Positions 14,571-20,863 of a stretch of 64,000 nt of DNA are shown here, piece by piece. The DNA comes from an uncultured Candidatus Saccharibacteria bacterium (GTDB taxonomy: Bacteria; Patescibacteriota; Minisyncoccia; UBA6257), in NCBI GenBank assembly GCA_964618625.1, contig CAZUBI010000001.1, positions 65,940 through 129,939 on the forward strand. Direction: 5' to 3'. Below the pieces are notes generated by a model. The model searched no databases. It was not told the origin of the DNA and worked only from the letters and a program-made list of their open reading frames with translations. The first letter of the stretch is position 1; each line of letters begins with the position of its first letter. Position numbers and translations under genes: made by a program.

Positions 14571-15890
14571 ATGAATAGAATTCTAACAATTCTGTCAGTA
14601 ATCCTAGTTTTAGGAATCGGAATATTTTTTGGTTCTCGTTTTTTCCAAAGATATTTAGAGTCCCAAGGAATTTTAGAGGCCCGAGTTCATCCTGCTGAAG
14701 CTACTTTAAAAATTAATAATAAAATTTATCAGAATAAACAAGGCATTTTTAAGATTAGATTACACCCTGGAGAACATTCTGTCTCCTTTTCATGTCCAGA
14801 TTATTCATTTTTGGAAGATAAAGTAAAAATTGAAAGTAATAAAACAACTAATCTTAATCATATTTATCTATTCCCTAATAGTTGGCCTAAAGAAAGAATT
14901 ATAACAAATGAAAAAATCGAACATTTCTATTTGAGCCCGGATTCTAATCGCATTCTTTTCATAAAAAAATCTTCTAATTATGATTGGTATATTTTTGATA
15001 GAAGCACAAAACAAAAAGAATACTTTCATAAAACCGCTTCTTTGCCATATGATATTGTTTTTTCTCCAAAAAAGATTCTAATTCATTCAGAAAAAAATAA
15101 TTGGGAAATTGTATTTTTACCAAAAAGCCTTATTAAAAATGGCATCTCTTTAAACACTCCATTTAAGGAAGCGCTGGATCAAGCGGAATTAAAAGAAAAA
15201 CAAACCTCTCTGACTATAAACCAAGCTATTTTCTACCTAAAAAATGATGGCGACATAATCGTTAAAACTACTGATGCAATTTATCTTTTTAATTTTCTTA
15301 CAGAATCTATAGAAAAAATATATGAAGGCAAAAGCTCCACTTTTATATTTGAGAACTATTATATCTATTTTATAAAAGAAAATGGGGTCTTTGCTAAAAT
15401 TTCTTTGGAGACAAAAAAAGAAATGGAAACATCTCTGTATAGTTTTTCTCTTGAAGATTTAGAGAAAGCTAAAATTAGAAAAGAAAAAAGTGAAAACAAC
15501 TTTTTAATTATTGAAGGATCAAAAAAAGCTTATTATTTAAAAGAATTTGAAAATTTACCAAAATTAATTGGTGAAAATGTTATTGATGGCATTTTTTCTT
15601 TAAACAAAAAAGAAATATTATTATATTCAAAGGATAAAATTGAAATTTATAATCCAGAAAGCGAAATTAAGTATTCTAAAAAACTTTATTCTGATATTCC
15701 AGTCACTTGGTTTCTTAATAACAACTATGTTTTATCCTTAAAAGATAACTTGCTTAATATTTATTCGCTCAAAAATAATAAAACCTGGCCTATTGCCAGT
15801 AATATAAAAAATAATAACTTTTTCTACGACCCTTCAATAAATTATATCTTTTATCTTTCCGATTCAGGTATAATAAAAGTATCTCTGTAA
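14571..15890 (+). CDS. membrane-anchored hypothetical protein with TolB-like beta-propeller-type repeats
   Basis: N-terminal TM helix, then a repetitive beta-rich pattern (YLSPDSNRILF, FSPKKILIHSE...). Confidence 0.4.
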   Translation: MNRILTILSVILVLGIGIFFGSRFFQRYLESQGILEARVHPAEATLKINNKIYQNKQGIFKIRLHPGEHSVSFSCPDYSFLEDKVKIESNKTTNLNHIYLFPNSWPKERIITNEKIEHFYLSPDSNRILFIKKSSNYDWYIFDRSTKQKEYFHKTASLPYDIVFSPKKILIHSEKNNWEIVFLPKSLIKNGISLNTPFKEALDQAELKEKQTSLTINQAIFYLKNDGDIIVKTTDAIYLFNFLTESIEKIYEGKSSTFIFENYYIYFIKENGVFAKISLETKKEMETSLYSFSLEDLEKAKIRKEKSENNFLIIEGSKKAYYLKEFENLPKLIGENVIDGIFSLNKKEILLYSKDKIEIYNPESEIKYSKKLYSDIPVTWFLNNNYVLSLKDNLLNIYSLKNNKTWPIASNIKNNNFFYDPSINYIFYLSDSGIIKVSL

Positions 15891-15892
15891 AT

Positions 15893-17146
15893 TTATTCGT
15901 ATCTTAAAGCATCAATTGGGCTTAATTTTGCTGCTTTGCGAGCAGGATAAATTCCAAAAATAAGGCCTATACTTGTAGCCACTCCAAACGCCAATATTAT
16001 AGAACTTAAAGAAAGAACAAAGTCCCACTTTATACCTAAAGCCATAGTTAAAGCAATGCTTATAAGATAAGAAAAAATAGCTCCTAATAAAATTCCTAAT
16101 ATTCCACCTAAAACAGTAAGAACCACTGCTTCAATTAAAAATTGATAAAGAATATCTTTTTTACGAGCGCCAACTGCTTTTCTTAAACCAATTTCCCTCG
16201 TTCTTTCGACCACTGAAACTAACATAATATTCATAATTCCAACTCCACCAACCACTAAAGCAATAGCGGCTACAGAAGATAAAAGTAATGTAAGGATGCT
16301 TGTAACTGTATTCATAATCGCGGCAGTTTCTTTTCCGCTCACCACCTTAAAATCATCTTTCGATAAATCTCCTTCTGGATTATATATATTATGCCTCTCC
16401 CTTAACATTAAACGAATACCTTCTACAGCTTCATCAATCTTATCCTGATTAACTATTTTAACTACAGAAGACTGCACGTGATTAATGCCTAATAAGAATT
16501 TTTGAGCACTAGAAATTGGAATATATATATATTCGTCAAGGTTTTGAAACATCTGCGTTCCTTGTTCCTCCATAACACCAATTACTCTAAAATTGGTTTT
16601 TTTAATTCTAATAATCTTGCCTATAGGATTTTCATCTTCAAACAAATCTTCCTTTATTTTATATCCTAAAACAACCACCTTTGACATACTCTGAACATCA
16701 AAATCAGTAAAATTAGATCCTAATATAGTTTGGACATCAGTTATTTTATTATATGCTGGAGTAGTGCCATAAAAGGTAATCTTTTCATCATTATTTTTAT
16801 AAATTACCCTACTCACACTAACAACTATTGGAGCAACCATTTCTACTAATGAATCTTTTTCAATTGCTTCCATGTCTTCAATGGTTAGTGTTTTAATTTC
16901 CATTCCCTCCATCATTTGTTGCGTCATATCACCTCCGCCTGCAAAGGCACCTGGTTCAACAAAAACATTATTAGCCCCCATTGACATAATCTGTCCTAAA
17001 ATTAAATTCTGAGCTCCATCGCCTAATGACATCATTAAAATAACTGATGCTATACCAATCACAATTCCCAAGATAGTTAAAAAAGAACGCGTTTTATTCG
17101 TTTTTAATCCTATTATTGCGGTTTTGAAAGAATTACTAAATTTCAT
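15893..17146 (-). CDS. ABC transporter permease, FtsX/MacB-type
   Basis: N-terminal TM helix, large periplasmic domain and C-terminal FtsX-like 3-TM region. Confidence 0.8.
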   Translation of the reverse strand: MKFSNSFKTAIIGLKTNKTRSFLTILGIVIGIASVILMMSLGDGAQNLILGQIMSMGANNVFVEPGAFAGGGDMTQQMMEGMEIKTLTIEDMEAIEKDSLVEMVAPIVVSVSRVIYKNNDEKITFYGTTPAYNKITDVQTILGSNFTDFDVQSMSKVVVLGYKIKEDLFEDENPIGKIIRIKKTNFRVIGVMEEQGTQMFQNLDEYIYIPISSAQKFLLGINHVQSSVVKIVNQDKIDEAVEGIRLMLRERHNIYNPEGDLSKDDFKVVSGKETAAIMNTVTSILTLLLSSVAAIALVVGGVGIMNIMLVSVVERTREIGLRKAVGARKKDILYQFLIEAVVLTVLGGILGILLGAIFSYLISIALTMALGIKWDFVLSLSSIILAFGVATSIGLIFGIYPARKAAKLSPIDALRYE

Positions 17147-17202
17147 AATTTTATTTCGAATGAAATGAGAAACAAGGTTCTGTGAGCAAAGCGAGCAGGT
17201 TC

Positions 17203-17913
17203 TTATTTAATCAAGCCATCTTTAGCATAATGTCTTGAATTTACCAATTCGTCACTAATTACCTTTCCGTCTTTTAATGAAATAATCCTTTTTGCCATTT
17301 CAGCTGTATATTTTTCATGAGTAACTAAAATTATAGTATGGCCCTGATTATTAAGTTTTTCAAAAATATCCATTATTTGCTGGCCCGATTTACTATCTAA
17401 ATTACCCGTTGGCTCATCTGCAAAAATTACAGATGGATGATTAACTATTGCTCGAGCAATTGCTGTTTTTTGCTGTTCTCCACCAGAAAGCTGATTTGGA
17501 AAATGAGAAGCCCTATGCAAAATACCAACTGCTTCAAGGGCCTGTTTTGTCATCTCATATTCTTTTTGTTTAGAAAAACCAGTATAAATTAAAGGCAATC
17601 TCACATTATCAAAAACTGTAGTTCTGGATAAAAGATTATAGGATTGAAAAACAAAACCCATTCTTTTGTTTCTAATTCTTGCTAATTCATCATCATTAAA
17701 ATTATCCATACTTTTTCCTTCAAATTTACAGATTCCTGAACTTGGTCTATCTAAAAAACACATAATGTGCATTAAAGTTGACTTTCCAGAACCAGAAGGC
17801 CCCATAATAGAAACAAATTCTCCTTGCGCAATCTTAAAAGAAACCCCTTGTAGAGCTGGGGTTTCAACAGAATCATTGCGATAAATCTTTTTAAGATTTT
17901 CAACTTTGATCAT
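17203..17913 (-). CDS. ABC transporter ATP-binding protein (MacB/LolD-type)
   Basis: Walker A GPSGSGKST, signature LSGGEQQ, Walker B IIFADEPTGNLD. Confidence 0.9.
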   Translation of the reverse strand: MIKVENLKKIYRNDSVETPALQGVSFKIAQGEFVSIMGPSGSGKSTLMHIMCFLDRPSSGICKFEGKSMDNFNDDELARIRNKRMGFVFQSYNLLSRTTVFDNVRLPLIYTGFSKQKEYEMTKQALEAVGILHRASHFPNQLSGGEQQKTAIARAIVNHPSVIFADEPTGNLDSKSGQQIMDIFEKLNNQGHTIILVTHEKYTAEMAKRIISLKDGKVISDELVNSRHYAKDGLIK

Positions 17914-17920
17914 AAAATTA

Positions 17921-19492
17921 TTATTTTTTGATAAAAGTAATCACTCTATCACCTTGTTTTAGTCCAGATATGATTTCAATATTTCCATCAGAACCTACTA
18001 AACCAGTTTCAACTTCAATTTCTTGAAAATCTCCGTCAACAGGAATTCTTACTATATTCTTTCCATCTTTTTCTATCACAGCTCTCCTTGGAATAATTAA
18101 AACATCTTCTCTTAAATCAGTAATAATGACAATATCTGCAGTCATCCCTGGCCTAATATTAATATCATCTGTATCAATAGTACATTTTCCTTTATAATAA
18201 ACGACACCATCAATTATACTTTCGGCAAAATCAAGCATTGCTACTTGTCCTGAAAATTCTTTTTGAGAATAAGCATCTAAAGTTATTAAGGCTGTATCTC
18301 CAATTTTAACTTTAGAAATATCAACTTCTGGAATATATACTTCAATCTCTAATCCTTTTTCTGCCATAATACTAATAACAGAAACATTAGCCAATACTAC
18401 TTCTCCTTTTTTGATTTCTTTTTTTGTAACCAAACCATCAATTGGGGCCCGAATAATGGTTTTTTCAATTAGCGCATAATAATTAGCTATATCGGCTTCA
18501 GCATATTTTACTTTTGCTTCTTGCGCAATAATCTGTTCTTCAGTAGAACCAGCTAATAAAAGATCAAGTTCATTTTGTGTCTTTTTAACTAATAAATTTT
18601 GAGAGGCAATATTTTGTTCTAAATTATTAATATTACTTATCGCGGTAATTACAAGATTTCTACCATCATTTGTATTTGTCCTATGAATATCAAGATTAGA
18701 ATTACTATAAGAACAATCTGCTAATAAAACGTTATTTAATTTTCCAAAAAAATCTTTAAAAAAAGCCAGATATCCTTTTGCATTATTCATAACTAGATTT
18801 AATTCTTCCTGAGAAGAGTTAAAGCCAAGTGTACTTAATTCATCTTTCCATTGCTTAAGTTTTCTTTCAGATATTAAACGTGAATATCCAGCATCTGAAG
18901 ATATTGAAGAAGACACACAAGGATCAAAACTTAATACATAACTATTTGCCGCTTCTGCTCCTAAAAAAATATCTTTAATATCTATTTTTATAGCTTCTTC
19001 GGATTTAGCATAAGAATCATCTAAAGTATCTAAAATATCTAGATAATAATTATCCAAGTCTTGCTGAGCCTTGAAAAGCTCTGTCTGTTTAATATCAATT
19101 GTTTCTAATCGAGTCCCTCTTTTTAATTCATCTAATTCAGCTTTTTCAACCTCTAAATTAGCTTTGGACTGTCTCAATTGGGCCCATAAATCATTGTTTT
19201 CTAAACTAGCCAAAACTTCACCATTTTTAACCTTATCCCCTGTTTCAACTAAAACTTGCGATACATTCCCTGTGGCTCTAAAAGATAAATCTATGCTTTC
19301 AGCAGCTTTTACTGTACCTGTTACTGAAACTTCCTCTCTTATAGATCCTCTCTCAGCTATTGCCAGATTATATTCTGATTCTTTGTTGTTTCTAAAAAAG
19401 AACAAACAAATAACCAATAAAATAACAGCGCCAATAATAACAATAACCCGTCTTTTAATAAGTTCTTTGTATATGTTTTTAAGAATATCCAT
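17921..19492 (-). CDS. HlyD/MacA-family periplasmic adaptor (membrane fusion protein)
   Basis: N-terminal TM anchor, long coiled-coil, C-terminal beta-barrel domains; adjacent to the ABC ATPase and FtsX permease. Confidence 0.75.
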   Translation of the reverse strand: MDILKNIYKELIKRRVIVIIGAVILLVICLFFFRNNKESEYNLAIAERGSIREEVSVTGTVKAAESIDLSFRATGNVSQVLVETGDKVKNGEVLASLENNDLWAQLRQSKANLEVEKAELDELKRGTRLETIDIKQTELFKAQQDLDNYYLDILDTLDDSYAKSEEAIKIDIKDIFLGAEAANSYVLSFDPCVSSSISSDAGYSRLISERKLKQWKDELSTLGFNSSQEELNLVMNNAKGYLAFFKDFFGKLNNVLLADCSYSNSNLDIHRTNTNDGRNLVITAISNINNLEQNIASQNLLVKKTQNELDLLLAGSTEEQIIAQEAKVKYAEADIANYYALIEKTIIRAPIDGLVTKKEIKKGEVVLANVSVISIMAEKGLEIEVYIPEVDISKVKIGDTALITLDAYSQKEFSGQVAMLDFAESIIDGVVYYKGKCTIDTDDINIRPGMTADIVIITDLREDVLIIPRRAVIEKDGKNIVRIPVDGDFQEIEVETGLVGSDGNIEIISGLKQGDRVITFIKK

Positions 19493-19510
19493 AAGTATTT
19501 TTGTTCTAAA

Positions 19511-19539
19511 ATTATATCACAAAAAAGCAAATATAGCAA
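19511..19539 (-). promoter_or_regulatory. sigma-70-like promoter (TTGCTA-17-TATAAT) for the HlyD-ABC-FtsX genes
   Basis: Minus strand: TTGCTA (19539-19534), 17-nt spacer, TATAAT (19516-19511); about 20 nt upstream of the HlyD ATG. Confidence 0.5.
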
Positions 19540-19543
19540 TTTA

Positions 19544-19590
19544 AAAACCGCTTGTTTAGTTACACTCATGTAACCTTCCAAGCGGTTTTG
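19544..19590 (-). terminator. hairpin attenuator/terminator between the micro-ORF cluster and the pump genes
   Basis: Minus strand: AAAACCGCTTG-24 nt loop-CAAGCGGTTTT followed by TAAATT; perfect 11-bp stem. Confidence 0.5.
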
Positions 19591-19595
19591 TTGTT

Positions 19596-19679
19596 TTATT
19601 TGATCCAAAGAGATAAAAAATACACTCCGATTATTATTATAAACCATGGAAGAAATTCGGAAAATTGAGTTACTATCAT
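19596..19679 (-). CDS. micro-ORF E, 27 aa single-TM peptide MIVTQFSEFLPWFIIIIGVYFLSLWIK
   Basis: AGGAGG 11 nt upstream; start ATG overlaps the stop of ORF D (TAATG). Confidence 0.5.
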   Translation of the reverse strand: MIVTQFSEFLPWFIIIIGVYFLSLWIK

Positions 19680-19780
19680 TATGTTTTTCGCCTCCTATTC
19701 TGTATATCTTTTATCTTATCATAAATTAAAATTGATACTAAAAATACAATTATAATCGTGGAAATAATCCATCCAACCAT
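19679..19780 (-). CDS. micro-ORF D, 33 aa single-TM peptide MVGWIISTIIIVFLVSILIYDKIKDIQNRRRKT
   Basis: AAGGAGA 8 nt upstream of ATG. Confidence 0.5.
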   Translation of the reverse strand: MVGWIISTIIIVFLVSILIYDKIKDIQNRRRKT

Positions 19781-19816
19781 CTTTTTATCTCCTTTATAAA
19801 ATCACGTTGCCTAAAA

Positions 19817-19939
19817 TCAAATTTCATTCATGTCGTATAAGTTCCCATTCGGATCAATTGCCATTTCGATTCCTTCAGGGGAGAGAAGAATCACAAAAGC
19901 AGTGCCATTTACTTTTTTTATTTTATTAAATCCTTCCAA
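19817..19939 (-). CDS. micro-ORF C, about 40 aa, TTG start: (M)EGFNKIKKVNGTAFVILLSPEGIEMAIDPNGNLYDMNEI
   Basis: TAGGAGAA 5 nt upstream of TTG; no in-frame ATG upstream (frame closed by TAA). Start is uncertain. Confidence 0.35.
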   Translation of the reverse strand: MEGFNKIKKVNGTAFVILLSPEGIEMAIDPNGNLYDMNEI

Positions 19940-19971
19940 AAATTCTCCTATTTTTTTACTTTTTCCTCTTC

Positions 19972-20052
19972 TTACAAAGGAGAAAAATTTTTAGAAATGA
20001 ATTTCCCTACTGCTTTTGTAATTTTTTTAACGTTCTTTTCAAAATTTCTCAT
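19972..20052 (-). CDS. micro-ORF B, 26 aa cationic amphipathic peptide MRNFEKNVKKITKAVGKFISKNFSPL
   Basis: AAGGAGGG upstream; ATG overlaps the stop of ORF A (TAATG). Confidence 0.5.
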   Translation of the reverse strand: MRNFEKNVKKITKAVGKFISKNFSPL

Positions 20053-20165
20053 TAAAATTCCCTCCTTCTCTTTATCTCTTTCCAAATAAAAAATGTAACA
20101 ATAGCCGAAGCCAAAACCCAAGAAATAAATCTAATCAGCGGTTGTTCAAACAGTTGTTCAAACAT
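20052..20165 (-). CDS. micro-ORF A, 37 aa single-TM peptide MFEQLFEQPLIRFISWVLASAIVTFFIWKEIKRRREF
   Basis: AGGAGGAGG RBS 8 nt upstream of ATG; first gene of the cluster. Confidence 0.5.
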   Translation of the reverse strand: MFEQLFEQPLIRFISWVLASAIVTFFIWKEIKRRREF

Positions 20166-20305
20166 TCTTTTACCTCCTCCTATCTTTTCTATTTTTTTAT
20201 TCTATTTTCAAAAGTAGTAATTAATACTACAATACAAATTTAAAATACTCTATATTACGAGCATCTTTAGTGTGCCATATTCTATTATAATAGTCAATAA
20301 ATAAT

Positions 20306-20863
20306 TTATCTCTTACTCCACTGTGCAGCCTTTCTAGCCTTTTTCAAACCATATTTCTTTCTTTCTACAACACGGGCATCACGTGTTAAAAATCCTGCTT
20401 TTCTTAAGGCGGGCTTTAATTTTTCATCAATTTTTATTAAACAACGGCTAATTCCCAATCTAATAGCTTCAGCTTGACCGGTAATTCCACCTCCTTTTAC
20501 TTTTATTGAAACAAAAAAACTATTCTCTAAATTAGTTGTTTTAAAAGGATCTAATATCTTCTTGTGGTAATCCTGCAAAGAAAAATATTCTTCCATTGTT
20601 TTTTCATTAATAACAAAACCTGGTTTGTCTTTAATAAGCCTTACACGAGCTACAGCTTCTTTTCTTCTGCCAATAGCTTCAATATATCTTTTCTTTACTT
20701 CTCTCTTTGCTTCTTTTTTCACTTCTTTTTTTACCTTTCTCTTCGTTTCTTTCTTCGCTGTTTTCTTTATCTCTTTCTTTGCAGATGTTGTTTTTTTTAC
20801 CTGCCTAAGTTTTCTTTCAGAAAATTTTGGTAGGTGAATTTTTTTCTCTTTTTTAACTACCAT
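20306..20863 (-). CDS. rpsI: 30S ribosomal protein S9 with a ~55-aa lysine-rich N-terminal extension
   Basis: C-terminal S9 core (GGGITGQAEAIRLGISR...KKYGLKKARKAAQWSKR); N-terminus is a KKE/KKV repeat tract. Confidence 0.85.
   Translation of the reverse strand: MVVKKEKKIHLPKFSERKLRQVKKTTSAKKEIKKTAKKETKRKVKKEVKKEAKREVKKRYIEAIGRRKEAVARVRLIKDKPGFVINEKTMEEYFSLQDYHKKILDPFKTTNLENSFFVSIKVKGGGITGQAEAIRLGISRCLIKIDEKLKPALRKAGFLTRDARVVERKKYGLKKARKAAQWSKR

What the first reader, a model, noticed from the sequence alone, without database searches (positions are those of the whole stretch)
15893..20305. Five tandem SD-led micro-ORFs (26-40 aa) upstream of a tripartite MacAB-type pump: candidate leaderless multi-peptide export or toxin locus
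Seen directly: on the minus strand between rpsI and the HlyD-adaptor gene lie five tiny ORFs, A to E. A is 20165..20052 (37 aa), B is 20052..19972 (26 aa), C is 19939..19817 (TTG start, about 40 aa), D is 19780..19679 (33 aa) and E is 19679..19596 (27 aa). Each has a strong AGGAG-type RBS 5-11 nt upstream. A/B and D/E are fused through TAATG stop-start overlaps. A, D and E are single-span hydrophobic peptides, B is a Lys-rich amphipathic peptide, and C is acidic. None has a double-glycine leader. The peptide cluster is followed by a perfect 11-bp hairpin with a T-tail (19590..19544), then a TTGCTA-17-TATAAT promoter, then the HlyD/MacA adaptor (17921..19492), ABC ATPase (17203..17913) and FtsX-type permease (15893..17146). 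This architecture (peptide genes, partial terminator, then a dedicated transporter with its own promoter) is typical of bacteriocin and peptide-toxin loci. Known examples are multi-peptide leaderless bacteriocins such as aureocin A70 and YknWXYZ-type peptide-toxin resistance pumps. It has not been described for MacB-type pumps in reduced-genome bacteria. Alternatives are small regulatory membrane subunits of the pump, or type-I-toxin-like peptides.
Basis: partly seen in the sequence, partly recalled or inferred. Interest (0 to 1): 0.85.

Follow-up and report, generated by a model that had tools for sequence, protein, structure and literature searches.

The report
Variable small-protein cassette beside MacB pump
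The five tiny genes are really there, but two of them are the halves of one broken 80-residue gene. One (E) is a conserved 27-residue membrane peptide. The set is a fast-shuffling, often-decaying accessory cassette next to a peptide-type efflux pump in an uncultured ultra-small bacterium, and nothing yet shows that it makes a bacteriocin.

Summary
Five such ORFs are far more than chance gives (0.19 expected; 0 of 2000 shuffles reach 5).

Comparison with 32 related lineages (CPR/Patescibacteria MAGs and metagenome contigs) changes the picture.
- **B and C** are not separate peptides. They are the N- and C-terminal pieces of one 73-88-aa gene ("X"), intact in 28 relatives. Here it is broken by a TAA nonsense codon and a 1-nt deletion in a poly-A run.
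- **X** is a new, unannotated, lineage-restricted alpha+beta protein.
- **E** is a real, conserved 26-30-aa single-span membrane microprotein (dN/dS 0.1-0.3), always the last gene before a covarying intrinsic terminator.
- **D** occurs in two other lineages. **A** is an orphan.

E alleles are shuffled independently of the pump: pumps 96% identical carry E peptides 25% identical. E has been truncated at least six times independently.

So this is a polymorphic, partly decayed accessory small-protein operon beside a YknXYZ-like pump. No peptide resembles a known bacteriocin. A role in antagonism or protection is plausible but unproven.

The parts
20269..20297 (-). Putative promoter of the small-ORF operon: -35 TTGACT (20297..20292), 17-nt spacer, TGG + CACACT (20277..20269), directly after the rpsI stop
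   Evidence: Read from the sequence. It is conserved in L015 and L048 as TTGACT-17-TGGTACACT in an 89%-identical leader. The consensus scanner did not call it, so it is inferred.
20166..20268 (-). Conserved 5' leader, about 100 nt
   Evidence: It is 86-89% identical to L015/L033 and L048 up to the first start codon, where the first ORF differs: A here, X3 in L015, X1 in L048. It has no significant fold (z -1.1) and no Rfam hit.
20052..20165 (-). ORF A, 37 aa: single hydrophobic span plus a KRRREF tail; orphan
   Evidence: It has a GGAGGAGG SD at 20180..20173. No homologue exists in any of 48 fetched loci. It was called as a gene in Logan contig L049. Coding status is unproven.
19972..20052 (-). 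ORF B: N-terminal fragment (helix 1, residues 1-26) of the disrupted X gene
   Evidence: It aligns to residues 1-26 of intact X in L001, L002, L008 and L038. The X profile hits this piece at E 3.2e-4. TAA at 19974..19972 stands where relatives have AGG or AAT.
19940..19971 (-). Disrupted linker of X: remains of helix 2, with a 1-nt deletion in the A-run 19957..19951
   Evidence: DNA alignment A1: the window reads GTAAAAAA-ATAGGAG and L001 reads ATAAAAAAGATAGGAG. The AF2 model places helix 2 at residues 28-40.
19817..19939 (-). ORF C: C-terminal fragment (beta-sheet part, residues 39-78) of the disrupted X gene
   Evidence: tblastn to L001, L002 and L005 gives 1e-12 to 5e-8. The X profile hits it at E 1.6e-12. 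dN/dS against intact X is 0.24-0.26.
19679..19780 (-). ORF D, 33 aa: single-span peptide with a basic NRRRKT tail that contains E's SD; sporadic accessory gene
   Evidence: It is 84% identical over 32 aa to an ORF at the same position in L026, whose pump is only 63% identical. dN/dS is 0.35 from 10 substitutions. L048 holds a D(1-7)/E(C-terminus) deletion remnant. D is absent from L001 and L002.
19596..19679 (-). ORF E, 27 aa: conserved single-span membrane microprotein, always the last gene before the terminator
   Evidence: Homologues of 25-30 aa are intact in 24 of 32 lineages, in four subfamilies. dN/dS is 0.10-0.31. AGGAGG SD at 19696..19691. Net charge 0, GRAVY 1.54.
19543..19589 (-). 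Intrinsic terminator: bipartite hairpin plus T-run
   Evidence: dG -22.8 kcal/mol, z -7.45. It is present in all relatives with compensatory changes; 3 of 9 outer pairs show double changes in 4-7 sequences. The inner helix covaries in L020 and L022.
19511..19539 (-). Pump promoter TTGCTA-17-(TG)TATAAT
   Evidence: Scanner hit with 10 of 12 matches plus TG. It is conserved in all relatives with at least 58% identical pumps.
17921..19492 (-). Membrane-fusion adaptor (MacA/YknX-like, 523 aa, N-terminal TM)
   Evidence: Pfam HlyD_D23 and HlyD_3. PDB MacA 5nik_D at 4.6e-21. Orthologues carry precomputed BSH_CzcB and Beta-barrel_YknX hits.
17203..17913 (-). ABC ATPase (separate polypeptide, YknY/Spr0694-like arrangement)
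   Evidence: Pfam ABC_tran at 2.2e-33.
15893..17146 (-). MacB-type (type VII ABC) permease
   Evidence: Pfam MacB_PCD at 1.2e-45 plus FtsX at 2.9e-23. PDB MacB 5gko at 5e-68, S. pneumoniae permease 5xu1_M at 7e-48, and the YknZ domain 5f9q.

Best explanation
**Shown**
- The interval between rpsI and the pump is a separate small operon. It runs from a conserved promoter and leader through A, [B|C], D and E to an intrinsic terminator.
- It sits in a strain-variable slot of a Patescibacteria (CPR, Paceibacteria-like) lineage.
- Its ancestral core is two genes. X is a soluble, lineage-restricted 73-88-aa alpha+beta protein. E is a 26-30-aa single-pass membrane microprotein.
- In this genome X has been inactivated by one nonsense codon and one homopolymer deletion. 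That leaves fragments B (helix 1) and C (beta-sheet).
- E is intact. D is an optional extra single-span peptide shared with two other lineages. A is an orphan ORF.
- The D-E pair is translationally coupled through a TAATG overlap, and so is the A-B pair.
- Cassette content and E/X alleles are exchanged between lineages independently of the pump, and are repeatedly lost by deletion.

**Inferred (function)**
- E, and probably D and possibly A, insert into the cytoplasmic membrane as bare TM helices.
- They form a polymorphic module of the antagonism/protection or self-recognition type.
- The adjacent YknXYZ/MacAB-like pump works from the outer face of the membrane. It either extracts and expels such peptides or protects the cell against them.
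- X is a dispensable cytoplasmic partner.

The pump itself is transcribed from its own conserved promoter.
For: **Anatomy**.

**B + C are one gene**
- They form a single ORF in L001, L002, L005, L008, L038 and many others.
- The lesions are seen base by base.
- The profile hits only these two pieces in the 64-kb window.
- The lesions are reproduced in a second assembly.

**X family**
- It has 10 clusters among 1.84e9 representatives and 28 among 5.8e9 proteins, with no family annotation.

**E**
- It is intact in 24 of 32 lineages, truncated in 6 and absent in 2.
- It is under purifying selection.

**Terminator covariation**.

**Shuffling**
- HlyD identity and E identity are uncorrelated (Spearman 0.10, p 0.24).
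- L017 and L020 have pumps 96% identical and E 25% identical. The window and L020 have pumps 74% identical and E 78% identical.
- D is 84% identical between genomes whose pumps are 63% identical.
- Window versus L038, from the same metagenome, is mosaic: 92.7% nt identity from E's 3' end into the pump gene, against 72.8% in X.
- The first ORF is swapped exactly at the start codon behind a conserved leader.

**Linkage to the pump**
- X-(E)-terminator-pump stays together even where the upstream genes are not rpsI (L042; L043).

**Pump family precedent for peptide toxins**
- YknXYZ-SDP, AS-48EFGH and MacAB-STII (PMC5985334, PMC7132975).
Against: **General limits**
- There are no expression or peptide data. 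All relatives are MAGs or metagenome contigs from one clade. Conserved adjacency to the pump may therefore be inheritance rather than function. Only one rearrangement (L042) tests this.

**Against an antagonism or substrate role**
- E is uncharged and too hydrophobic to resemble any known secreted bacteriocin.
- It has no leader, and no biosynthetic or processing genes lie nearby.
- The cassette is nearly universal at a fixed site, rather than sporadic.
- E and X are not co-dependent. E is intact with X broken in the window, and with X absent in L024/L040. X is intact with E lost in at least 6 lineages. This argues against a strict toxin/immunity pair.
- A strong terminator and a separate promoter uncouple the cassette from the pump.
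- Intact pumps exist without the cassette (L011, 89% identical).
- Pseudogenisation of X here shows that at least part of the module is dispensable.
Confidence: 0.35

Rival explanations
1. Unrelated neighbours. X, E, D and A are lineage-specific small proteins sitting in a recombination and insertion hot spot at the 3' end of the ribosomal-protein operon. Their adjacency to the pump is historical, and they have no functional link with it.
For: - The slot also holds unrelated genes in other lineages: a PRTase, a DUF502-like protein, an XRE-HTH protein, and assorted small TM proteins.
- A strong terminator and an independent, conserved pump promoter separate the units.
- Pumps exist without the cassette (L011).
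- E does not covary with the pump.
- Decay is frequent.
Against: - X and E always occupy the two positions immediately 5' of the pump terminator, while the variable genes lie further upstream.
- The block persists in L042 with different upstream genes.
- No X homologue was found at any pump-less locus among those inspected.
Confidence: 0.25
2. E is a small accessory or regulatory membrane subunit of the MacB-type pump, in the manner of AcrZ-AcrB, KdpF-KdpABC, VraH-VraDE or YknW-YknXYZ. X is a cytoplasmic cofactor.
For: - E is a 26-30-aa single-pass peptide under purifying selection, always directly upstream of the pump in the same orientation. It is intact in 24 of 32 lineages.
- Conserved small residues (G/S) and aromatic belts in the TM segment suggest helix packing.
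- The MacB review explicitly leaves open unknown small-protein partners (PMC5985334).
Against: - E sequence does not track the pump or the adaptor TM helix. Pumps 96% identical carry E peptides 25% identical.
- E is transcriptionally separated from the pump by a -22.8 kcal/mol terminator.
- E was lost or truncated at least 8 times while the pump stayed intact.
Confidence: 0.2
3. One reading: five independent leaderless peptides form a multi-peptide bacteriocin or toxin (aureocin A70-like) exported by the pump.
For: - The ORFs are small, SD-led and tightly packed, and are followed by a partial terminator and a dedicated ABC system.
- B alone looks like a cationic amphipathic helix.
Against: - B and C are fragments of one disrupted 80-aa globular protein gene.
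- A is an orphan.
- E, D and A are TM helices rather than cationic amphipathic peptides.
- None matches a bacteriocin family.
- Relatives have one to three, not five, small ORFs of these kinds.
Confidence: 0.04
4. E is a regulatory leader peptide. Ribosomes finishing E sit on the 5' arm of the terminator, because the stop codon lies 5-10 nt from the stem in all subfamilies. Translation of E would therefore tune read-through into the pump genes.
For: - The E stop codon is consistently 5-10 nt upstream of the terminator stem across E subfamilies.
- The layout resembles ribosome-mediated attenuation upstream of resistance ABC genes (general knowledge).
Against: - No alternative antiterminator structure is predicted.
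- The pump has its own conserved extended -10 promoter downstream of the hairpin.
- E's hydrophobic TM character is conserved while its sequence drifts, so selection acts on the peptide product.
- Lineages with E deleted keep the terminator and the promoter.
Confidence: 0.05
5. E, D and A are type-I-toxin-like hydrophobic killer peptides controlled by an antisense RNA.
For: They are small hydrophobic single-span peptides, and they are frequently lost.
Against: - Their consensus SDs are strong and unoccluded, and they are translationally coupled.
- No conserved antisense promoter or terminator was found in the scan, and there is no Rfam antitoxin RNA.
- E sits at a fixed syntenic position with long-term purifying selection across a clade.
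Confidence: 0.03

Closest known systems
YknWXYZ (Bacillus) and Spr0693-0695 (S. pneumoniae): MacAB-like pumps of monoderm bacteria
   Same: - The pump has the same three-gene core: an MFP adaptor with an N-terminal TM, a separate ABC ATPase, and a MacB_PCD+FtsX permease.
- Orthologues carry YknX-type Pfam barrels.
- YknXYZ protects against a peptide toxin (SDP). YknXYZ also has an extra co-encoded membrane protein, YknW (PMC5985334, PMC4887032).
   Different: - There is no YknW (Yip1-type, multi-TM) homologue. The adjacent genes here are a 27-aa single-span peptide and an unrelated 80-aa soluble protein.
- These adjacent genes lie in a separate transcription unit.
- No SdpC-like toxin gene was seen.
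Bacteriocin loci with HlyD/ABC/FtsX immunity-export modules (AS-48 as-48EFGH; circular and leaderless bacteriocin clusters)
   Same: - Small peptide genes and small TM proteins sit beside an MFP + ATPase + FtsX-type permease set with independent promoters (PMC5985334, PMC7132975).
- Gene content varies between strains.
   Different: - No structural peptide here resembles a circular, leaderless or GG-leader bacteriocin.
- E is uncharged and purely hydrophobic.
- There are no maturation genes.
- The locus is near-universal in its clade.
Pneumococcal blp-type bacteriocin/immunity region (from general knowledge, not tested here)
   Same: Conserved flanks enclose a cassette region. Small peptide and small TM protein genes are shuffled, duplicated and pseudogenised among near-identical strains.
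   Different: blp peptides have double-glycine leaders and use a C39-peptidase ABC exporter. Neither feature is present here.
Small membrane-protein modulators of transporters (AcrZ, KdpF, VraH)
   Same: E is a single-pass peptide of under 50 aa encoded beside a transporter. The MacB review notes that such partners may exist for MacB pumps (PMC5985334).
   Different: E shows no covariation with the pump, has a separate transcript and has been lost repeatedly.

Membership tests
MacB-family (type VII ABC) tripartite pump, monoderm YknXYZ/Spr0693-95 arrangement | Permease with an N-terminal TM, a large extracytoplasmic MacB_PCD domain and a C-terminal FtsX 3-TM bundle | tested here: met
   Pfam MacB_PCD at 1.2e-45 plus FtsX at 2.9e-23. 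phmmer to MacB 5gko at 5e-68, 5xu1_M at 7e-48 and the YknZ domain 5f9q.
MacB-family (type VII ABC) tripartite pump, monoderm YknXYZ/Spr0693-95 arrangement | Separate ABC ATPase gene adjacent to the permease | tested here: met
   ABC_tran at 2.2e-33 for the 236-aa ORF 17203..17913.
MacB-family (type VII ABC) tripartite pump, monoderm YknXYZ/Spr0693-95 arrangement | Membrane-fusion (HlyD/MacA-type) adaptor with an N-terminal TM helix | tested here: met
   HlyD_D23 and HlyD_3. MacA 5nik_D at 4.6e-21. Hydrophobic N-terminal segment RRVIVIIGAVILLVICLFFF.
Leaderless (class IId) bacteriocins, e.g. aureocin A70/A53, lacticin Q, enterocin L50 | Cationic, amphipathic, usually Trp-containing helical peptide of 30-55 aa, soluble after synthesis | tested here: not met
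   E has net charge 0, GRAVY 1.54 and one TM-length hydrophobic run. D and A are a TM span plus a basic tail. B is cationic but is helix 1 of the X fold.
Leaderless (class IId) bacteriocins, e.g. aureocin A70/A53, lacticin Q, enterocin L50 | Sequence similarity to a described bacteriocin family | tested here: not met
   No Pfam, NCBIfam, PADLOC or PHROG hit for A, D, E or X. B and C were scanned against Pfam only, also without a hit.
Leaderless (class IId) bacteriocins, e.g. aureocin A70/A53, lacticin Q, enterocin L50 | Antimicrobial activity of the unprocessed peptide | not testable with these tools
   Needs synthetic peptides or expression.
Double-glycine-leader class II bacteriocins with C39-ABC exporter | GG/GA leader cleavage motif in the peptides and a C39 peptidase domain on the ABC exporter | tested here: not met
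   No GG motif in A-E. The transporter proteins carry only HlyD, ABC_tran and MacB_PCD/FtsX domains.
Small membrane-protein subunits or modulators of transporters (AcrZ/KdpF/VraH type) | Single-pass peptide of under 50 aa | tested here: met
   E is 27 aa and its best 17-aa window has a Kyte-Doolittle score of 2.22.
Small membrane-protein subunits or modulators of transporters (AcrZ/KdpF/VraH type) | Co-expression or co-evolution with the transporter | tested here: inconclusive
   Intact E is present in 24 of 32 lineages, but behind a strong terminator with a separate pump promoter. E identity is uncorrelated with pump identity (rho 0.10) and with the adaptor TM sequence.
Small membrane-protein subunits or modulators of transporters (AcrZ/KdpF/VraH type) | Physical association with the transporter | not testable with these tools
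   Needs pull-down, cryo-EM or a multimer prediction with paired alignments.
Type I toxin-antitoxin | Antisense or overlapping regulatory RNA with its own promoter and terminator | tested here: not met
   No Rfam hit. No conserved plus-strand promoter/terminator pair over A-E in the scan. This is weak negative evidence.
Ribosome-mediated attenuation leader peptide | Alternative antiterminator structure, and a downstream gene that depends on read-through | tested here: not met
   Only the terminator folds. The pump has its own conserved promoter.

The most novel reading that the evidence does not exclude
The E family, with D and perhaps A, is a set of leaderless, uncharged transmembrane micropeptides. 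A MacB-type pump would extract them from the producer's membrane and release them, in the way LolCDE extracts lipoproteins. They would then serve in strain-level antagonism, kin recognition or host-membrane interaction in episymbiotic Patescibacteria. The recombining E/X alleles would be maintained by frequency-dependent selection. This would be the first peptide-warfare or recognition system described in CPR bacteria, and the first TM-peptide substrate class for a MacB pump.
Probability: 0.15. Interest if true: 0.8.

Novelty: new variant of a known kind. Interest (0 to 1): 0.42.

Why it matters
- **New families.** The work defines two unannotated protein families in ultra-small uncultured bacteria. 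One is an 80-aa alpha+beta protein. The other is a 27-aa membrane microprotein too short for standard gene callers.
- **Unusual dynamics.** These genes behave as a recombining, frequently decaying cassette at a fixed site beside a peptide-type efflux pump.
- **A testable handle.** This gives concrete alleles, a partner pump and natural knock-outs. They can be used to ask whether Patescibacteria use small hydrophobic peptides for competition or host interaction. They can also be used to ask whether MacB-type pumps have small-protein partners, a point left open in the MacB literature (PMC5985334).
- **A caution.** Two of the five 'micro-ORFs with strong RBS' are pseudogene fragments. The RBS of one of them (C) is just coding sequence of the ancestral gene.

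Tried and rejected
1. **Non-coding RNA.** Rfam found only four tRNAs elsewhere at gathering threshold. At E<=1 it found one chance hit over 19480..20320. The leader has no significant fold.
2. **'A-like' ORFs in L001 and L002.** These (LTNKIISGII...) first looked like homologues of A. They are actually the rpsI terminator plus a TTGAC(C/T)-17-TATAAT promoter read as protein. A remains an orphan.
3. **Family assignment.** Pfam, NCBIfam, PADLOC and PHROGs gave nothing above noise for X, A, D, E and the other cassette proteins.
4. **Structure of X.**
   - Foldseek against BFVD found nothing at E<=0.001.
   - The afdb50 library was unavailable.
5. **Phage origin.** The viral-contig scan with the X alignment could not run because the alignment had no conserved stretch.
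6. **Homology search for A.** An exact look-up of C found no record.
7. **E-pump co-evolution.** I looked at the HlyD tree, the adaptor TM helix and an identity correlation, and found none.
8. **Attenuator model.** No alternative fold was predicted.
9. **Assembly artefact for the B/C split.** This is unlikely. There are two different lesion types, and the same sequence appears in metagenome contig SDBT01153363.1 (L010) and in a Logan assembly of SRR8482195. Those assemblies may share reads, however.

Full report
**Observation**

- Each has an AGGAG/GGAGG-type Shine-Dalgarno (SD) site 5-11 nt upstream.
- A/B and D/E overlap through TAATG.
- The region is 27% G+C.
- Five SD-led ORFs of at least 26 aa on one strand of 716 nt compare with 0.19 expected. 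None of 2000 dinucleotide-preserving shuffles reached 5, and the maximum was 3.
- The hairpin at 19589..19544 folds at -22.8 kcal/mol with z = -7.45. It has 11 outer pairs and 7 inner pairs, and a T-run follows it.
- The pump promoter TTGCTA-17-TGnTATAAT (19539..19511) is one of the five top-scoring minus-strand promoter-like sites in the interval (10 of 12 matches) and the only one of them with a TG extension.
- The three pump proteins carry HlyD_D23/HlyD_3, ABC_tran, and MacB_PCD+FtsX domains.
- Their closest solved relatives are MacA (5nik_D, 4.6e-21), MacB (5gko, 5e-68), the S. pneumoniae MacB-like permease (5xu1_M, 7e-48) and the YknZ extracellular domain.
- The ATPase is a separate polypeptide, as in the YknXYZ/Spr0693-0695 systems of monoderm bacteria.

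**Source and relatives**

The closest records are MAGs labelled Candidatus Paceibacterota, Parcubacteria or "Saccharibacteria". The window is therefore a Patescibacteria (CPR) genome.
- Searching genomes and metagenomes with the adaptor protein gave L001-L041.
- Context look-ups of X homologues added L008/L009 and L042-L048.
- After removing duplicates, about 32 lineages have pumps 58-98% identical to the window's.
- L010 (SDBT01153363.1) and L049 (a Logan assembly of SRR8482195) are 100% identical to the window.

**B and C are one broken gene**

In L001, L002, L005, L008, L038 and most other relatives, a single SD-led ORF of 73-88 aa occupies the place of B plus C. I call it X.

The DNA alignment shows exactly two differences that matter.
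- A TAA at 19974..19972 stands where relatives have AGG or AAT.
- One base is missing from the A-run at 19957..19951. The window reads GTAAAAAA-ATAGGAG and L001 reads ATAAAAAAGATAGGAG.

An HMM of the X family hits only these two pieces in the whole 64-kb window (C at 1.6e-12, B at 3.2e-4).

An AlphaFold2 model of an intact member (P0001, 13-sequence alignment) is confident, with pLDDT 89.6 and pTM 0.77.
- Helix 1 spans residues 2-22 and helix 2 spans 28-40. A four-stranded sheet follows.
- B corresponds to helix 1 and C to the sheet. Helix 2 is lost in the disrupted linker, so the fold can hardly survive.
- dN/dS of C against intact homologues is 0.24-0.26. B gives 0.33-0.64. Intact-versus-intact comparisons give 0.14-0.25. 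This fits recent inactivation.

An NCBI MAG (L048, GCA_030590245.1) carries an independent +1 frameshift in another A-run of X.

**The X family**
- X is narrowly distributed and unannotated. It has 10 clusters in 1.84 billion representatives and 28 proteins in the 5.8-billion-protein database, none with a Pfam domain or an informative name.
- It has no Pfam, NCBIfam, PADLOC or PHROG hit.
- X occurs in several subtypes and often as two tandem paralogues, as in L014, L015 and L027-L029.

**E is a genuine conserved microprotein**
- An SD-led ORF of 25-30 aa with one hydrophobic span is the last gene before the terminator in 24 of 32 lineages.
- It falls into four sequence subfamilies that share one pattern: M-[IV]-V-x-x-[FL]-x-x-[FY]..., a G/S in mid-helix, an F-Y-[FL] motif, and a polar or basic end.
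- Within the window's subfamily, dN/dS is 0.10-0.31.
- E has net charge 0 and GRAVY 1.54.
- Standard gene calls miss it.

**D and A**
- D (33 aa) is 84% identical over 32 aa to an ORF at the same position in L026, whose pump is only 63% identical.
- L048 retains a deletion remnant that fuses D codons 1-7 to E's last codons.
- L001 and L002 lack D but keep its last 23 nt, which contain E's SD.
- The basic tails of A (KRRREF) and D (NRRRKT) are encoded by the AGGAGG SD of the next gene.
- A has no homologue in any fetched locus. It could not be searched in the big databases because it is under 40 aa.
- A sits between a conserved leader and X. In L048 that leader runs straight into X, and in L015 it runs into a different X paralogue.

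**Transcription signals**
- The leader (20268..20166) is 86-89% identical among the window, L015/L033 and L048. It begins with TTGACT-17-TGG(Y)ACACT (20297..20269), which I take as the operon's promoter. This is an inference, since the scanner did not call it.
- The terminator is present in every relative and shows compensatory changes, CCGC/GCGG to CCAT/ATGG, CCAC/GTGG and TCGC/GCGA. Three of nine outer pairs show double changes in 4-7 sequences. The inner helix also covaries (L020, L022).
- The pump promoter immediately downstream is conserved throughout.
- No antiterminator alternative is predicted.

**Evolutionary behaviour**

The slot between rpsI and the terminator is highly variable.
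- Besides X, E and D, other lineages carry a PRTase gene, a DUF502-like protein, an XRE-HTH protein and several 62-88-aa multi-TM proteins. They also carry 74-aa and 97-aa soluble proteins. The small TM and soluble proteins have no family hit.
- E subfamilies do not follow the pump tree. Over 136 pairs, adaptor identity and E identity are uncorrelated (Spearman 0.10, p = 0.24).
  - L017 and L020 have pumps 96% identical and E 25% identical.
  - The window and L020 have pumps 74% identical and E 78% identical.
  - The adaptor's TM helix does not track the E subtype either.
- The window and L038, from the same metagenome, are 92.7% identical from E's 3' part into the adaptor gene, but only 72.8% identical in X, and unalignable further upstream.
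- E has been truncated by independent deletions in L009, L016, L038, L042, L015/L033 and L048. It is absent in L011 and in the L005 group.
- X is disrupted in the window and in L048, and absent in L011 and L024/L040.
- E and X are not mutually dependent. E is intact with X broken or absent in two lineages, and X is intact with E lost in at least six.
- X-(E)-terminator-pump stays together where the upstream genes are not ribosomal (L042, L043). I found no X at a pump-less locus, but all the data come from a single clade.

**Interpretation**

The anatomical and evolutionary description is well supported; I put it at about 0.9. This is a polymorphic accessory small-protein operon whose core is X plus E. 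In this genome it is partly decayed (X is broken) and carries the extra single-span ORFs D (sporadic) and A (orphan).

Function is inferred only. The recombining alleles, presence/absence polymorphism and repeated loss point one way. So do the accompanying small TM proteins and the neighbouring pump, whose family handles peptide toxins: YknXYZ-SDP, AS-48EFGH and MacAB-STII (PMC5985334, PMC4887032, PMC7132975). Together these features favour a module of the antagonism/protection or recognition type. In that model, membrane-inserted peptides are handled by the MacB-type pump from the outer face of the membrane. I give this about 0.3-0.35.

The rivals are nearly as likely.
- The genes may be unrelated occupants of a hot spot (0.25).
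- E may be a pump-modulating microprotein of the AcrZ/KdpF/VraH kind (0.2).
- The literal five-peptide leaderless-bacteriocin model is essentially excluded (0.04).
- The leader-peptide and type-I-toxin readings are unlikely (0.05 and 0.03).

**Novelty and verdict**

The pump is an ordinary member of the MacB family. X and E are new, unannotated families. The cassette dynamics beside a MacB-type pump in a CPR genome have no description that I could find. I rate the finding as a new variant of a known kind and of moderate interest (0.42). It would be high only if the peptide-export or recognition model proved true.

Noticed in passing
window 20306..20863 (minus), rpsI: Ribosomal protein S9 carries a Lys-rich low-complexity N-terminal extension. 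The protein is 185 aa and the S9 domain spans residues 65-185. The total length differs among close relatives: 146, 164, 172 and 176 aa.
   Followed up: partly
window 19559..19574 (inside the terminator loop): The inner palindrome GTTACATGAGTGTAAC is conserved in many relatives and covaries in L020 and L022. It forms a second helix of the terminator. It lies just upstream of the pump -35, so it could also be a protein operator.
   Followed up: partly
window 14571..15890 (+): A convergent 439-aa ORF has an N-terminal TM and only weak PEGA/CarboxypepD_reg-like hits. It is syntenic with the pump in L008, L046 and L047. It is a conserved neighbour of unknown function.
   Followed up: no
window 20141..20162 (start of ORF A): A begins with a 10-nt direct repeat, TTTGAACAAC, spaced by 2 nt and encoding MFEQLFEQ. 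This may be a trace of how this orphan ORF arose between the conserved leader and X.
   Followed up: no
L048 2259..2620 (GCA_030590245.1, JAUUYY010000004.1): X has an independent inactivation by an extra A in a 9-A run. A deletion also fuses D codons 1-7 to the last 8 codons of E. The cassette is decaying in parallel in a second genome.
   Followed up: yes
L009 6263..6370: A deletion removes the 3' end of E and the whole terminator. This joins E directly to the pump promoter region.
   Followed up: partly
L001 5400..5470 and L002 5400..5470 (also L008, L012, L014, L021, L022): Downstream of rpsI these relatives have a near-consensus TTGAC(C/T)-17-TATAAT promoter. In some it follows a GC-rich hairpin with a T-run. 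The region reads as a spurious conserved 'ORF' (…LLTDKVISGIIKLL…). The window instead has a different leader and promoter, shared with L015 and L048.
   Followed up: yes
L024 105..398 and L040 3425..3718: In these lineages a 97-aa soluble protein replaces X upstream of an intact E. It starts MPNIEIHG and has no family hit.
   Followed up: no
L017 291..671 and L023 2898..3278: An XRE-type HTH protein (126 aa, HTH_3 at 9e-11) sits at the 5' end of the cassette in two lineages. It is a possible local regulator.
   Followed up: no
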